From contig CM000434.1 of the NCBI GenBank assembly GCA_000165345.1, positions 1,268,858 to 1,332,857 on the forward strand: a stretch of DNA of 64,000 nt, in the 5' to 3' direction. A program made the position numbers. This document shows positions 1 through 33,000 of this stretch, in pieces (position 1 is the stretch's first letter; each line of letters begins with the position of its first letter).

Positions 1-3000
1 ATTTCTCTCCGATTAGAAGCTCAGTATTCCTTGGCTCATTCTCTAATTGCTGCAATTTTAACTTTACAGCATCACTCAGTTGCAGGTAGGGTTTTACACT
101 GTGATCTAAATACCAGAAGTATCTATCTTGATCGTATAGTTTGGAGCTGGTCTTCTAGGAAGATTGAAGATAATTTGAATGCAATAACACAACTGTCCCC
201 ATCTAACTTCAAATTTATTAACTTTGGGTATATGAAATCAACTCTCGAGGTATCAGAGGAGAATTTAGGCTGCTCTCAAACTGATAATGATTTAGTTAGA
301 GTACAAGAATTTATTAAGATTTTATTTTCAGAGCAAAGCAATAGATCAGAGTTCCCTGAAAGTGGAAGCATAAGTAGTGGTATGATGACAATGAGCACTG
401 GATTTAAAATGTGGTGGAATGAAGTAGTTAATTCTGTTGGAGCAGAGTCCACTAATCAAGAAGTCAATGAGCAAGAAGTTTTGCAAGTTGAAAATATTCT
501 AAGGACTATTTATACAGATAATTCAGTTATATCAAATCTTGATAGAACAGCCAAATTTTCTGGTATTGTTGCAGGCTTGAAGGCAATTCACGCCTCCATC
601 AGCAAGGCATTTAGATATCTTTATGAGCAAGGATATGGTAGAACTAAGAAAAGGGTAATTCTTGGTTGGTCAAGCAAAGACCTTGAGCCTGAGCCTGCCA
701 CCGAAATTAGTGGTACTGTCAGAAGAATCCTTAGTGGCAAGAAAATTGAAAATTCTTCTAATATGAATTCTTCTGGTGTAGATCCTTCAGGTTCATCTGA
801 TTTGGAGCTTTCTGCTGAATCTATTGGAATCTCTAGCTAGTTGTATCTGCCTCCAATATATTAAAAATAACTTTATGAAACTCCCATTTAGTTATTTTCA
901 GATGTTGAACATTGAAGATACCTAATACGAAATTCCCGAATAGATATTTATTAATATATAGTCTAGAGAATCTTTAGACAAGAATAGAAAAAAAAAACTA
1001 GGAAATTAAGAAATCAATGTATCCTAATCTTTATAAAATATACCTAGATTATTTACCCAAATACCCATATGCATCAAGCAAATAGCATTAATGAAGAAAG
1101 ATAACAACTCCTAATAAGTATTAAATACCAAATTCTAATTATTTACTAAGGTAAATTAAAAATAGAAGGGTGAAAACGCTTAAGTTCTAAAGGGAATAAG
1201 ATCCTTGAATCATAAAACTTTCCGTAGCTCACTACCTTTTTGTCTCTTCAAACAATAGTAGTTCAAATCCCCCAATCATAATACCAATTGGAAAACCTAA
1301 AACAAATTACTACCTAGCTTGCAATCTTATAGTTCCTTAATGTAAATGCAGTCAGGAAGTATCCAAGAATTCTGAAGGCGAGTCCCAAGCAAATAGCAAC
1401 TATAATGTTAAGCCAAATATCGGTTGTCCAGAGATTAAATTGATCTAGGAAGAAGTCTGTAGTAACTTTTGAGAATCTTTCTCCTGGAATGAATACTGAT
1501 AATATCATACCGGTATAAGTATATCTTACAGTGGATATCCATCCTAACCATCTGATCCAAACAGGAATTTGATCAAATGTAACAAAGTAGCCTGCAAGTA
1601 AAGCAAAAACTAAACTGAATAGTGGGAAAATCTGGAATACAGTATTTGTACTCGTACTAAACGAGGAAAGTACATATGAGAATGAGTATGAAAGAAATAC
1701 TCCAGCTTGAGTAGAAGCAGTCCAAAGTCCAAACTGGTCAGCCAAAGAAGTTTTGAGATTCTGATCATAAACTCCAGTCATGAAGTAAACGATTGTTGTA
1801 TATACCAATGTCTGAATATGTTGAACTGGGAAGTCTGCAACCATCCTCGAAAAATAGTAAGAAATAGGGGTATACATCTTAGAATAGGTTTCTTTGTTCA
1901 TTACAAAACGCTCATCAACGGTTACAACAAGCCCCTTAATAGAAAAGAATGAGATACTTGTTGATACAAAGAAGATCAAACCAATGATATTTCTTGCATT
2001 TTGAGCAGTATCAAAATCGTTTTCTCCAGCTCTTGGGAGAGAAAAGAAGACTCCTCCCATGATAATGGCCATAATAGTGTTAACAAGTAGTAATCCAACT
2101 GTTACATTTGGATCTCTCCAAGTATTGAGAAGTATTCTCTTTGTAAGATATTTAACCTCTCTACAGAAACGTATAGGACCTGGGATTGGTGATAACCTTG
2201 CAATTTTTTGACAAATTGTCTGAGTTGGAAGGATTTTCATATTTGCAGAATCAATATTTCCATAATTCTCAAATAAGATTTGAGGATTACTTGTATCAAC
2301 GCATCTTAAGTGATTATCGATGCCTTTCTTAACATTTTCTCCATATACTGATTGTTCATAAATCTTATGGAACTCATCCAAAGATTCAATAGAGGGAACT
2401 TCCAGTCCAAACAGTTTCATTGAAATATCATCTCTTGATACTGATTTTTCGAACTCATAAAGTGGTTCTTCTCCATCCAGATTTCGTTCAGCTAATTCAA
2501 TTTCCTTTATAGTTGCATCCTTGGGTACATATATGGAGGCTGAAATTACTTTCTTATGTACTAACTCAACAAGAGACGTAGCATCTATAATGAAATCTGC
2601 TGGATTATAGTTATCAGGGAAGGGTGTAACAACATCATTAAAGAAGGTAACAACGTCCATTGGAGATCCTTGTCCTAAAACAAATCCTCTACTCAAGAGA
2701 GTAATTTTATCAAACAAGGCAAAAGTCTGCGATCTTGGGGTATGAATAGAACAAATCACAATAATTCCAGTGGTATGGGCGAGAGACGAGAGATATGATA
2801 GTAAATCATGAGCTCTAGCAGCATCCAAACCTGTTGTTGGTTCATCCAAAAATAATATTGGAGGATTCTGAATCAATTCCAAGGCAATACTAAGTCTTTT
2901 CATCTCACCACCAGAAATTCCTTTCTTTGAAATTCCTCCAACGTATGTATCTTGTACATGTCTGAGTCCCATAATATCAAGAATTTCAATAATCTTTTCC

Positions 3001-30000: not shown

Positions 30001-33000
30001 TCGTTTGGAGCTAGGATAACGCAATATAAGCAATCTGGATGTTTAGTGAGAAATTCGCTTACTAATACTTTAAGAGACAATTTTATTAACGATATTGAAT
30101 AGGGTTTAACTATTGGGTGATAAGAAAAATGCATACCGATAAGATTGAGTCAAAACCAGTAAGAGGGTCTATTTTCCCTCCTAATGCGGATCAGGGAGTT
30201 TATTTGGCAGCAACGGACATTTCTTATCAAATTACAAGTGGCGTTTTTGAACAAAGCACTGCAAGAATATTATCAGGAATAAAGTTCTTTGCTGAGCCGA
30301 AAACTATGACTGCAATATTGGGTCCTAGTGGATCAGGTAAGACTTCTTTACTTAATATCTTGTCAGGCAGGCTTTCTTCAACTGGTAATAAGCTTGTAGG
30401 AGGATCGATATATTTGAATGGAAAGAAGGTTACAAGCAAAGATTTAAAGTCCCGTTGCAGTTATGTGATGCAACATGAAATGACTATTCCATATTTAACA
30501 ATTGAAGAAACTTTGCTTTACTCCGCAGAATTGAGATTGCCTTTTTTGTCCGCAAAAGAAAGAAGAGAAAAGGTTAGAATTTTGCTAAATGATTTGGGTT
30601 TAGTACATTGCATGCATTCAATTGTGGGTGATGATAAGGTAAGATCAATATCTGGAGGTGAACGCAAAAGAGTTATTTTGGGTACTGAGTTGATTAGTGA
30701 TCCTCAAATACTGTTTATTGATGAACCTACAAGCGGTTTGGATGCATTTATGGCTTTTCAAATCTTGCAGTTACTAATAAAGTTGGCAAAAACAGGAAGA
30801 ACAATTATTTGTACGATACACCAACCTAGAACTCAAGTATTTCAGGCATTTGATGAAATTTTATTGTTGTCGAAAGGAGAAGTCATTTATCAAGGACCAT
30901 CTAAATCTTCAGTTGATTATTTTTCCCTAATTGGATACCCTGTACCAGAAAATTACAATCCAACTGACTATTATCTGGATTTGCTTGTTCCAAGATCAAA
31001 TGTGGAAAAATTTGCTGACAGCCGTCTTCACTCCATTACTTATGAACAATTGAGAGTATTACCAGAGTTGTACTTATCATCAGAGTATAACGATAGGGTA
31101 ATAAGAAAGATCGATGAACATTTGAGTGGGCAATATTCCCCAATTCCTGAGCTACTATTGTTTTCAAGAAGTAGCCATACATGTTTTGGATGGATAAGAA
31201 AGAAGCTATTTGCTTTTAGTGTTATTGTAAAGAGATCTTTTATGAATAACGCAAGAAATACTTTAGGATCATTGGTTATTGGTGTTTTGGTAAATGCTTT
31301 TATTGCAGTTGTAATTGGAAGTATCTTCTTTAATTTGCCTTCATTTAGCAATGATATTGGGATAACCTTTAAAAATGCAACCAACATTATGGGGGCACTT
31401 TTCTTTTCAGTAATGATTGCAACATTTGGAGCAATGATAGCATTAGAATCTTTCACAAGGTTTAGAATAATATTCTCTAGAGAAAGAGCGAAAGGATTAT
31501 ATGGCCCTGCAACATACATGCTAGGTAAACATGTTGGAGATTTTATCTTTGAAATTGTTCCAATTTTGGTATTTAGTCATATATTCTATTTTATGAGTAA
31601 TACGAATTCTGTTTCGTACCCAGGCTGGAATACTTTAACTCAATATCTATGCTATCAATTAACTATTTTATTAACTTCCTGGGCAAGCTATGGCTTAGTT
31701 TATTTTATTTGCGGGATAACAAAGTCATTGGAACTTGCATATGGAATTGCTCCTTTAATAATTATCTTCTTTGTCATAGTATCAGGTTTCTATGTAACAG
31801 TTAATAAGTTGCCATTATGGGTTTCTTGGATCAAATATATTTCTTTCCAGAGATATTCTTATTCTGCCTTGGTGGTTAACACTTTCCCACCAAACCAAAA
31901 TTGGGGTCCAATTCAGACCGATATTTTACTTAAACAGTTCTCTATTGATCAGACATCATTTTTACTGAATGCAGTGGTATTAGTTGTTTTGGGCATTTTA
32001 TACAGAATTTTTGCCTGTATTGCATTTGCTCTTTTCTTTAGAAATCTTGGTTTAGAATAAAGTTAATACAATTAATGTATTTGGACAGGGTATTTAACTC
32101 TGGCGTAGTAGGATAGGCTCTGTTTTAGCTTTTAAATATTTAACTTTATACTTTGTTTTATTTCTATTTTGCTTTTAGTAATATTTATTAACTATTCTTT
32201 AAGTTTCTGTGACTAAATGTCAGCCTCGAATTTAAATAGCGATGATAAGGTTCTAATAGATTACTTATATCATAATTTTAATAATTATTAATATTTGTTC
32301 CTAGCTTTTTAAGATTTAATTGTTTTATGTTTTTGAATATCCCTTGCCTCACAAATTTTAATTGCTAAATCATTTGAACATAATTGTTTACAAAAATCCA
32401 AATTTTAGTCAACATGTTTGGTTAAATCTGATCAATATTTATATATTCAATAGAATAACACATTTTCTATAATTTTACTCTTCCAATTTTCGACAATTAG
32501 TATACATTATTTGTTTATTTACATATATAAAAGGCTATATATCTTCATTTAGTTAGACAACTATTAATTTAAAAAGCCCTGCAAATAATGTTTTTTTAAT
32601 GATAAAATAATCAATTAATTTATAATACTTAACAGATTTTAAAGAATAAATTCAAAATTTTAAGATAAAGATATACTTTTTATAAGGTATAAGTTATTTT
32701 AATATACTTTTATCAAATACATGACAAATTAAAAATCATTTATTACAATCTGAATATTTTCGATTACTATCTCAGTAGTTGGTTAATAAAATATCTCAAA
32801 AGAATTGCAATGGTTATTGACTTTACAAAGACTCAATAAATAATAAAAAATCTACATTAATCCGATTAAACTATAAAACAAACTAATCTCTAATATTACG
32901 AAATTAAAAAAGATTATAATTAAAGTACAATAATAAATGATTTTAACAAAAGCTCATTTGACATCAATAAATTAAATGATAAATTCCAGATTTCAGTCCG

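What the first reader, a model, noticed from the sequence alone, without database searches (positions are those of the whole stretch)
1314..32060. Inverted pair of divergent ABCG half-transporter paralogues brackets a 26-kb island of eight consecutive secreted or surface protein genes
The ABCG genes at 1314-3685 (minus) and 30129-32060 (plus) point away from each other. Between them, every gene (4295, 5978?, 7402, 11736-14058, 14256, 16523, 18980, 23597, 25600) encodes a signal-peptide protein: mucin-like poly-Thr proteins, large repeat-containing secreted proteins, and a GPI-type acidic surface protein. Immediately to the right the composition switches to about 85% AT subtelomeric DNA. This looks like a discrete secretory or surface-antigen gene neighbourhood at a core-subtelomere boundary.
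Basis: inference. Interest (0 to 1): 0.5.

Follow-up and report, generated by a model that had tools for sequence, protein, structure and literature searches.

The report
Conserved secretory-cargo gene block, Cryptosporidium chromosome 6
This is the right end of Cryptosporidium parvum chromosome 6, where a run of already annotated genes for secreted proteins lies between two anciently diverged ABCG transporter genes; the run is real and conserved across the genus, but it is largely known biology and nothing shows that the transporters bound or serve it.

Summary
The window is the right end of C. parvum chromosome 6 (cgd6_5350 to cgd6_5450, then subtelomere and TTTAGG telomere). The observation mostly holds. 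Two ABCG half-transporter genes (1314-3685 minus, 30129-32060 plus) point away from each other, with nine genes between them, not eight. Eight of the nine start with a signal-peptide-like segment; cgd6_5370 (5979-7221) does not. Three are characterised in a 2025 paper: SG3 and CP2 are small-granule proteins and DG7 is a dense-granule protein, and all three go to the parasitophorous vacuole membrane. The island proteins share no detectable similarity and have no homologues found outside the genus. Gene order and strand are kept in C. ryanae, C. xiaoi, C. muris, C. andersoni and C. serpentis, including the low-GC DNA after the right ABCG. The "bracket" reading is weak. The ABCGs are 31% identical, their duplication predates the genus, and the gene left of the left ABCG also has a signal peptide. 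The DNA to the right is 79% AT, not 85%. A 100-N scaffold gap lies at 33061-33160, and 33163-53448 maps to the chromosome 5 end in gapless assemblies. Verdict: real but ordinary, a conserved subtelomere-proximal block of secretory-cargo genes.

The parts
31..840 (+). C-terminal part of the 565-aa gene left of the left ABCG. Its N-terminus lies outside the window and looks like a signal peptide.
   Evidence: Gene call L005 1742-3439. N-terminus MKSIFPFFSIFLPLLKHSFG in C. parvum, with similar N-termini in C. ryanae and C. muris. Orthologues 57% and 46% identical. No Pfam hit.
1314..3685 (-). Left ABCG half transporter (cgd6_5350 by position, CPATCC_003126), 774 or 769 aa, with a small 5' intron (3620-3666 in the 774-aa model).
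   Evidence: Pfam ABC_tran 9.5e-25 and ABC2_membrane 6e-37. Intron solved. The spliced 774-aa protein is an exact match to CAD98346/QOY41420. Orthologues 97% (chipmunk genotype) down to 58% (C. muris) identical.
4295..5755 (+). cgd6_5360 (by position; CPATCC_003127), 486 aa, signal-peptide-like N-terminus, function unknown, well conserved.
   Evidence: Exact match EAK90104. The C. hominis orthologue is named 'putative signal peptide-containing protein'. Hydropathy 3.28 at residues 7-15. 58% identical in both C. ryanae and C. muris. No Pfam, NCBIfam or PDB hit.
5979..7221 (+). cgd6_5370, 393 aa, intron 5983-6043. It has no signal peptide and is the exception in the run.
   Evidence: Spliced model is an exact match to cpbgf_6005370 / CHM_6g5370. 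N-terminus MDPQFRFNLRPVIQNRNN, no hydrophobic segment anywhere. 27% identical in C. ryanae.
7402..11634 (+). cgd6_5380, 1410 aa, hydrophobic N-terminus. Named 'transmembrane protein' in some annotations. Genus-restricted.
   Evidence: Exact match EAK90106. Only Cryptosporidium homologues found, 98% to 52% identical, and 36% in C. muris. A paralogue lies two genes left of the left ABCG.
11736..14058 (-). cgd6_5390, 736 aa in current annotation. The uninterrupted ORF is 12427-14058 (543 aa). Signal-peptide-like N-terminus.
   Evidence: Gene calls. EAK90107 is an exact match to the 543-aa ORF. Hydropathy 3.59. Orthologues 54% (C. ryanae) and 38% (C. muris) identical. The exon structure of the 736-aa model was not solved with one GT-AG intron.
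14256..16259 (-). SG3 (cgd6_5400), 667 aa: signal peptide, six copies of a 63-bp (21-aa) repeat, and a 41-residue Thr run. Small-granule protein sent to the vacuole membrane.
   Evidence: Translation. Tandem repeat 15241-15635. Ser/Thr run. Localisation and dispensability in PMC12782386. Used as a VNTR typing locus.
16523..18658 (-). CP2 (cgd6_5410), 711 aa: signal peptide, Lys/Glu-rich repeats, and a 30-residue Ser/Thr run. Small-granule protein of the vacuole membrane.
   Evidence: Translation. Repeats. PMC12782386. Divergent positional homologues in C. ryanae (E 4e-23) and C. serpentis (pairwise E 8e-6).
18980..22930 (-). DG7 (cgd6_5420), 1316 aa: signal peptide and five divergent Cys-containing repeats. 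Dense-granule protein sent to the vacuole membrane.
   Evidence: Exact match EAK90109. Repeats. PMC12782386. 43-56% identical orthologues in C. xiaoi, C. ryanae, C. andersoni and C. serpentis. Only one hit among 1.84 billion representative proteins.
23597..24943 (+). cgd6_5430, 448 aa: signal peptide, acidic 33-bp repeats, a conserved C-terminal domain, and a terminal hydrophobic tail that fits a GPI signal or a tail anchor.
   Evidence: Exact match EAK90111. pI 4.40 and C-terminal hydropathy 2.95. Repeat 24057-24183. The tail is conserved in C. xiaoi and C. andersoni.
25600..29433 (+). cgd6_5440, 1277 aa: signal peptide, 32 Cys, three internal repeats. Co-purified with DG8.
   Evidence: Exact match EAK90112. 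The C. hominis orthologue is named 'putative signal peptide-containing protein'. Repeats. 59% to 44% identical orthologues. DG8 pull-down log2 enrichment 4.67, p 0.06 (PMC13241007 supplement).
30129..32060 (+). Right ABCG half transporter (cgd6_5450), 643 aa.
   Evidence: Pfam ABC_tran 5.1e-25 and ABC2_membrane 7.9e-33. Exact match CAD98355. Orthologues 86% to 49% identical across the genus.
32061..33060 (.). First kilobase of low-GC (0.21) DNA after the right ABCG. It is still collinear with chromosome 6 in gapless assemblies.
   Evidence: The same GC drop follows the orthologous ABCG in C. xiaoi, C. andersoni and C. serpentis.
33061..33160 (.). Scaffold gap of 100 N.
33163..53448 (.). Segment that maps to the left end of chromosome 5 in long-read assemblies. 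It carries a 429-aa secreted-type gene, a 272-aa gene, two MEDLE genes and a 294-aa gene.
   Evidence: 99.0-99.9% identical to CP044418.1, where telomere repeats abut the ATG of the 294-aa gene. MEDLE C-termini.
56234..59603 (-). Insulinase-like M16 protease, read here as two ORFs with ambiguous bases between them. It is one 1120-aa gene in gapless chromosome 6.
   Evidence: Pfam Peptidase_M16 6.7e-25. One 1120-aa gene in L009. N bases at 57724-57884.
62053..63970 (+). Telomere, TTTAGG repeats with many errors towards the end.

Best explanation
This is an old, positionally conserved stretch of Cryptosporidium chromosome 6, just inside the subtelomere. It holds unrelated, genus-restricted genes whose products enter the ER through a signal peptide.

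Shown for three genes: the products are packed into small granules (SG3, CP2) or dense granules (DG7) and discharged at and after invasion to build the parasitophorous vacuole membrane and host interface.

Inferred for the others: cgd6_5440 probably belongs to the same interface, because it co-purified with DG8. cgd6_5430 is probably membrane-anchored through its C-terminal tail. cgd6_5360, cgd6_5380 and cgd6_5390 are secretory-pathway proteins of unknown destination. cgd6_5370 is not secretory.

The two ABCG genes are ordinary, well-conserved half transporters. Their duplication predates the genus, and they are neighbours of this run by conserved synteny. Nothing shows that they delimit, regulate or serve it.
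For: - Identity of the locus and all gene models.
- Signal-peptide-like N-termini in 8 of 9 genes. They are conserved in orthologues.
- Published localisation of SG3, CP2 and DG7 to small or dense granules and then the vacuole membrane, with SignalP calls: PMC12782386.
- cgd6_5440 enriched in a DG8 pull-down.
- No similarity among island proteins, so this is not a tandem family.
- No Pfam, NCBIfam or PDB sequence hits.
- cgd6_5380 and DG7 have homologues only in Cryptosporidium.
- Same order and strand in C. ryanae (left half up to the 3' part of DG7), C. xiaoi, C. andersoni and C. serpentis (right half) and C. muris (left half).
- ABCGs 31% identical. Each clade has 200 of 200 bootstrap support and contains both gastric and intestinal species.
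- A signal-peptide gene also lies left of the left ABCG.
Against: - Five of the eight signal-peptide proteins have no localisation data, and I could not run SignalP. One C. hominis annotation labels cgd6_5380 only 'hypothetical', and other annotations call it a transmembrane protein.
- The destination of cgd6_5360, which is as conserved as the ABCGs (58% to C. muris), could be a housekeeping secretory-pathway role rather than host interaction.
- CP2 knockout raised expression of both neighbours, SG3 and DG7 (PMC12782386). This hints at local regulatory coupling that a pure 'historical synteny' view does not predict. The authors allow that it may be an artefact of the inserted cassette.
- Presence of SG3 in gastric species was not tested.
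Confidence: 0.72

Rival explanations
1. One reading: a discrete, co-regulated secretory or surface-antigen domain whose limits are set by the two outward-facing ABCG genes, at the boundary of core and subtelomere.
For: - 8 of 9 genes between the ABCGs have signal-peptide-like N-termini.
- The arrangement is conserved across the genus.
- GC drops right after the right ABCG in five species.
- CP2 deletion raises expression of both flanking genes (PMC12782386).
Against: - The signal-peptide run continues left of the left ABCG, and the insulinase-like gene right of the right ABCG also starts with an N-terminal hydrophobic stretch of the signal-peptide type (not scored).
- A cgd6_5380 paralogue lies outside the bracket.
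- No motif is shared by all upstream regions. E2F-like and GCATGC sites are scattered.
- Reported expression differs within the block: SG3 and CP2 are high at all stages, while DG7 is low and follows the dense-granule pattern.
- The characterised products go to the vacuole membrane, not the parasite surface.
Confidence: 0.12
2. An ancient inverted duplication of one ABCG gene in the Cryptosporidium stem lineage made the outward-facing pair. The secretory genes later accumulated between the two copies.
For: In the NJ tree the two clades are sisters in 94 of 200 bootstraps, and they sit together next to gregarine and Cardiosporidium ABCGs. They have opposite orientation on one chromosome.
Against: - Only 31% identity.
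- By score each is closer to ABCGs of other eukaryotes than to the other copy: 391 bits to Selenidium against 315 bits to the left ABCG. The right ABCG is absent from the best 120 hits of the left one.
- The right ABCG groups with Selenidium and/or Cardiosporidium in 87 of 200 bootstraps.
- No remnant of duplicated flanking sequence was seen.
Confidence: 0.1
3. Functional coupling: the ABCG half transporters export lipids or sterols needed for the vacuole membrane or feeder organelle that the island proteins populate, and the genes are kept together for that reason.
For: Only circumstantial. Co-location is conserved across the genus. ABCG transporters in other eukaryotes, including Toxoplasma, move lipids and sterols (general knowledge, not tested here).
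Against: - No localisation, expression or genetic data for either ABCG were found.
- Conserved synteny is common throughout Cryptosporidium genomes, so it is weak evidence of coupling.
- The left ABCG shares its upstream region only with cgd6_5360.
Confidence: 0.06

Closest known systems
Subtelomeric clusters of secreted pathogenesis determinants in Cryptosporidium (MEDLE, SKSR, FLGN, insulinase-like proteases, Muc1-7)
   Same: Runs of signal-peptide genes near a chromosome end. Two mucin-like, fast-evolving, repeat-length-variable members (SG3, CP2). The block adjoins a MEDLE and insulinase subtelomere.
   Different: The known clusters are paralogous multigene families with copy-number change between species (PMC7371110). 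This block has unrelated single-copy genes. Its order is fixed from gastric to intestinal species, and it sits in normal-GC core DNA, not in the low-GC subtelomere.
Small-granule and dense-granule cargo of C. parvum that builds the parasitophorous vacuole membrane (SG1-3, CP2, DG1-8)
   Same: Three island genes are named members (SG3, CP2, DG7). cgd6_5440 co-purifies with DG8.
   Different: Other members are spread over chromosomes 7, 8 and others. Membership of the remaining five island genes is untested.
Eukaryotic ABCG (White/ABCG2-type) half transporters
   Same: Nucleotide-binding domain first, then an ABC-2 membrane domain. Size 643-774 aa. Walker A GPSGSGKS/T. Best outside hits are ABCG proteins of gregarines, fungi, plants and animals.
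   Different: Substrate, partner (homo- or heterodimer) and location in Cryptosporidium are unknown.

Membership tests
ABCG half transporter (both flanking genes) | Reverse domain order: one ABC ATPase domain N-terminal to one ABC-2 type membrane domain in a single polypeptide of about 600-800 aa. | tested here: met
   Left: ABC_tran 118-269, ABC2_membrane 494-713. Right: ABC_tran 53-206, ABC2_membrane 367-590, plus ABC2_membrane_7.
ABCG half transporter (both flanking genes) | Closest relatives are ABCG/White-family proteins. | tested here: met
   Hits named ABCG2, ABC transporter G family, White and SNQ2/PDR.
ABCG half transporter (both flanking genes) | ATP-dependent transport as a dimer. 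| not testable with these tools
   Needs biochemistry.
Local inverted gene duplication (the 'inverted pair' reading) | The two copies are each other's closest relatives and more similar to each other than to orthologues in related genera. | tested here: inconclusive
   31% identity. By score each is closer to foreign ABCGs. NJ bootstraps give sisters in 94 of 200 and the right copy with Selenidium and/or Cardiosporidium in 87 of 200. The duplication certainly predates the genus.
Secretory (signal-peptide) protein gene cluster | Consecutive genes whose products carry an N-terminal signal peptide, more than chance allows. | tested here: met
   8 of 9 genes by hydropathy heuristic. Base rate about 10%. 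SignalP support is published for three. Annotation labels exist for three. SignalP itself was not run.
Secretory (signal-peptide) protein gene cluster | Discrete limits at the two ABCG genes. | tested here: not met
   The 565-aa gene left of the left ABCG has a signal peptide in three species. The insulinase-like gene to the right starts with an N-terminal hydrophobic stretch of the signal-peptide type (not scored).
Subtelomeric multigene family of secreted proteins (MEDLE, SKSR or FLGN type) | Members are paralogues of one another. | tested here: not met
   All-against-all BLASTP of island proteins finds no pair at E <= 0.01. Only the two MEDLE ORFs outside the island match, at 76%.
Subtelomeric multigene family of secreted proteins (MEDLE, SKSR or FLGN type) | Copy number and presence vary between species. 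| tested here: not met
   One-to-one positional orthologues in five other species.
Mucin-type glycoproteins (SG3, CP2) | Signal peptide plus a long Ser/Thr tract suited to O-glycosylation. | tested here: met
   Runs of 41 and 30 Ser/Thr residues. Listed as mucins in PMC4637869 and PMC7371110. Glycosylation itself was not tested.
GPI-anchored surface protein (cgd6_5430) | N-terminal signal peptide and a C-terminal hydrophobic tail reaching the last residue, preceded by small residues. | tested here: inconclusive
   The tail ...FSGQNLYIAMGILATVSIIVIVLMMM is conserved in C. xiaoi and C. andersoni. No GPI predictor or experiment was available, and a tail-anchored membrane protein is equally possible.
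MACPF pore-forming proteins (UniRef name of the C. hominis DG7 orthologue) | A MACPF domain detectable by profile or sequence search. | tested here: not met
   No Pfam hit even at E <= 5. No PDB sequence hit. phmmer of residues 1-1199 against 1.84 billion representatives finds one Cryptosporidium orthologue only.

The most novel reading that the evidence does not exclude
The block could be a genus-wide, co-regulated unit for building the parasitophorous vacuole membrane. In this reading small-granule and dense-granule cargo genes are held together because they share local chromatin control, as hinted by both neighbours rising when CP2 is deleted. The flanking ABCG transporters would supply lipid to the same membrane.
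Probability: 0.08. Interest if true: 0.55.

Novelty: already known. Interest (0 to 1): 0.2.

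Why it matters
It has limited importance. The locus is a convenient, genus-conserved landmark that holds three proven host-interface proteins and five untested candidates (cgd6_5360, 5380, 5390, 5430, 5440), so it offers a short list for tagging experiments.

Two practical points follow:
- The old reference places about 20 kb of chromosome 5 subtelomere, including two MEDLE genes, on chromosome 6 behind a scaffold gap. Coordinates right of 33 kb should therefore not be used for synteny or copy-number claims.
- The reported "loss" of CP2 in bovine and gastric species appears to be divergence of a gene that is still in place. 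This matters for arguments that tie gene loss to host range.

Tried and rejected
- **DG7 fold:** AlphaFold2 on DG7 repeat 1, with the five internal repeats as the alignment, gave mean pLDDT 50.8. I ran no fold search because it would be meaningless.
- **Family and structure searches:** Pfam, NCBIfam and PDB sequence searches of the island proteins at lenient thresholds gave only noise.
- **MACPF label:** the "MACPF" name on the C. hominis DG7 orthologue was tested and rejected.
- **Self-BLAST for internal repeats:** this returned nothing when run whole against whole. It worked only after cutting the proteins into overlapping segments.
- **cgd6_5390 intron:** a single GT-AG intron could not reproduce the 736-aa model, so the exon structure is left open.
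- **Shared promoter motif:** a search for E2F-like, GCATGC and other motifs upstream of island genes found nothing common to all.
- **Spatial proteomics and expression data:** the hyperLOPIT paper (Guerin 2023) is not held. Expression and polycistron supplements were not available.
- **ABCG literature:** literature searches for Cryptosporidium ABCG function found nothing relevant.
- **Recent inverted duplication:** I considered that the ABCG pair was one, and rejected it on 31% identity and the presence of both copies in gastric species.

Full report
**What the window is.** Exact protein look-ups place the window on C. parvum chromosome 6. The 1410-aa product of 7402-11634 is EAK90106 (cgd6_5380). 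The products of 12427-14058, 18980-22930 and 23597-24943 are EAK90107, EAK90109 and EAK90111. The product of 30129-32060 is the ABC transporter CAD98355. The window ends in about 1.9 kb of degenerate TTTAGG telomere repeats. Gene calls from four assemblies and the second look-up fix the models and names used below.

**The two ABC genes.** Both have an ABC ATPase domain followed by an ABC-2 membrane domain, which is the ABCG half-transporter layout. The left gene needs a small intron near its 5' end to reach the annotated start at 3685. The spliced 774-aa product is an exact database match. The two proteins are 31% identical over their whole length.

Each has orthologues throughout the genus. 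The left one runs from 97% identity (chipmunk genotype) to 58% (C. muris). The right one runs from 86% to 49% (C. andersoni). The duplication is therefore older than the split between gastric and intestinal species.

By score, the right gene is nearer to gregarine and Cardiosporidium ABCGs (391 and 386 bits) than to the left gene (315 bits). The right gene does not appear among the best 120 hits of the left one. A neighbour-joining tree with 200 bootstraps supports each Cryptosporidium clade 200 times. It leaves their relationship open: the two clades are sisters in 94 replicates, and the right clade groups with Selenidium and/or Cardiosporidium in 87. "Divergent paralogues" is correct. "Inverted pair" as a local duplication is unproven.

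**Genes between them.** There are nine:
- cgd6_5360 (4295-5755, plus strand)
- cgd6_5370 (5979-7221, plus strand)
- cgd6_5380 (7402-11634, plus strand)
- cgd6_5390 (11736-14058, minus strand)
- SG3, cgd6_5400 (14256-16259, minus strand)
- CP2, cgd6_5410 (16523-18658, minus strand)
- DG7, cgd6_5420 (18980-22930, minus strand)
- cgd6_5430 (23597-24943, plus strand)
- cgd6_5440 (25600-29433, plus strand)

The numbers 5350 and 5360 are inferred from position next to the confirmed 5370 and 5380.

A hydropathy check finds a signal-peptide-like N-terminus in eight of the nine. cgd6_5370 has none, and it has no hydrophobic segment anywhere. The N-terminal feature recurs in the orthologues I translated.

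I could not run SignalP. Published SignalP calls exist for CP2, SG3 and DG7. One C. hominis annotation labels the orthologues of cgd6_5360, DG7 and cgd6_5440 as signal-peptide-containing.

About 10% of C. parvum proteins carry a signal peptide (397 of 3981). Under independence, eight of nine in a row is expected about 3e-4 times per genome. The clustering is real.

**What the proteins are.**
- SG3 and CP2 have Ser/Thr runs of 41 and 30 residues and variable tandem repeats.
- DG7 has five divergent repeats with four conserved cysteines.
- cgd6_5440 has three repeats and 32 cysteines.
- cgd6_5430 is acidic (pI 4.4) and ends in a conserved hydrophobic tail. This fits a GPI signal but does not prove one.
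- None of the island proteins resembles another.
- None hits Pfam, NCBIfam or PDB sequences.
- cgd6_5380 and DG7 have homologues only in Cryptosporidium.
- The UniRef label "MACPF domain-containing" on the C. hominis DG7 orthologue finds no support.

**What is already published.** A 2025 paper (PMC12782386) tagged CP2, SG3 and DG7. CP2 and SG3 are stored in small granules and DG7 in dense granules. All three move to the parasitophorous vacuole membrane. CP2 and SG3 are dispensable. Deleting CP2 raised transcripts of both neighbours, which the authors call either an adaptive response or an artefact of the manipulation.

A 2026 paper (PMC13241007) found CP2 and SG3 enriched in a DG8 pull-down. 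Its supplement lists cgd6_5440 with log2 enrichment 4.67. SG3 and CP2 were already listed as fast-evolving mucins. Subtelomeric clustering of secreted determinants is a standard theme in the genus.

**Synteny.**
- In C. ryanae the order and strands from the 565-aa left neighbour through the left ABCG, 5360, 5370, 5380, 5390, an SG3-position gene and a CP2-like gene to DG7 match C. parvum.
- In C. muris the left ABCG, 5360, a 5370-position gene, 5380 and 5390 match.
- In C. xiaoi, C. andersoni and C. serpentis, DG7, 5430, 5440 and the right ABCG match. The ABCG is followed by DNA of GC 0.12-0.26 close to a contig end.
- In C. serpentis the gene just downstream of DG7 has a signal peptide and an N-terminal domain weakly similar to CP2 (pairwise E 8e-6).
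- The C. ryanae gene in that position matches CP2 at E 4e-23.

The block is ancestral to the genus.

**Is it bounded by the ABCGs?** No. The 565-aa gene immediately left of the left ABCG has a signal peptide in C. parvum, C. ryanae and C. muris. A paralogue of cgd6_5380 lies two genes further left. On the right, the insulinase-like protease also starts with an N-terminal hydrophobic stretch of the signal-peptide type (I did not score it with the heuristic). The upstream regions share no common motif. Reported expression differs between SG3/CP2 and DG7.

**The right-hand AT-rich DNA.** GC falls from 0.33 to 0.21 at the right ABCG stop codon, which is 79% AT, not 85%. The window is collinear with gapless chromosome 6 assemblies only up to 33060. 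A 100-N gap follows. 33163-53448 is 99-99.9% identical to the left end of chromosome 5 in the IOWA-ATCC assembly, where telomere repeats directly abut the start codon of the 294-aa gene.

From 54894 the window again resembles the true chromosome 6 end, at 97.4% identity. In gapless chromosome 6 the right ABCG is followed by one small gene, one 1120-aa insulinase-like gene and the telomere, about 10 kb in all, also at GC 0.21. The core-to-subtelomere switch at the right ABCG is therefore real. Most of the 30-kb tract in this window is probably a scaffolding artefact of the older reference.

**Verdict.** However, it is a conserved stretch of annotated, partly characterised secretory-cargo genes in a well-studied parasite. 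The ABCG "bracket" has no demonstrated meaning. Interest is low.

Noticed in passing
window 33061-33160 and 33163-53448: A 100-N scaffold gap is followed by about 20 kb that maps at 99-99.9% identity to the left end of chromosome 5 in long-read C. parvum assemblies. There, telomere repeats abut the ATG of the 294-aa gene (52563-53447). The older reference therefore appears to place chromosome 5 subtelomere on chromosome 6.
   Followed up: yes
window 56234-59603 (minus strand); N bases at 57724, 57767, 57806, 57884: The insulinase-like M16 protease reads as two ORFs (490 and 570 aa) separated by a stretch with ambiguous bases. Gapless chromosome 6 assemblies have one 1120-aa gene, and this part of the window is only 97.4% identical to them.
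   Followed up: partly
window 50033-50722 and 51249-51953 (plus strand): Two 76%-identical ORFs with signal peptides end in ...NMEDLE. They are MEDLE-family genes, and they lie in the segment that maps to chromosome 5 in newer assemblies.
   Followed up: partly
L021 19706-22492 (C. ryanae) and L024 13686-15984 (C. serpentis), compared with window 16523-18658: Divergent positional homologues of CP2 sit directly downstream of DG7 in a bovine and a gastric species (E 4e-23 and pairwise E 8e-6 to the CP2 N-terminal domain). [quoted passage not shown]
   Followed up: partly
window 18980-22930 (minus strand): DG7 consists of five divergent repeats of roughly 190-310 residues that share four invariant cysteines. 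The fold could not be predicted (pLDDT 50.8). The 'MACPF domain-containing' name on the C. hominis orthologue is not supported by any search.
   Followed up: yes
L021 53-493 and L022 15213-17948 (left of the window's start): A roughly 900-1000 aa paralogue of cgd6_5380 lies two genes left of the left ABCG in C. ryanae and C. muris. An AP2-domain gene lies next to it in C. muris.
   Followed up: no
window 11635-11735: cgd6_5380 and cgd6_5390 converge with only 101 bp between their annotated ends. The 736-aa model of cgd6_5390 could not be rebuilt with a single GT-AG intron, and older annotations give 543 or 629 aa.
   Followed up: partly
window 15241-15635: SG3 carries 6.3 copies of a 63-bp repeat. 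Another C. parvum isolate encodes 728 rather than 667 aa, which fits its use as a VNTR typing locus.
   Followed up: partly
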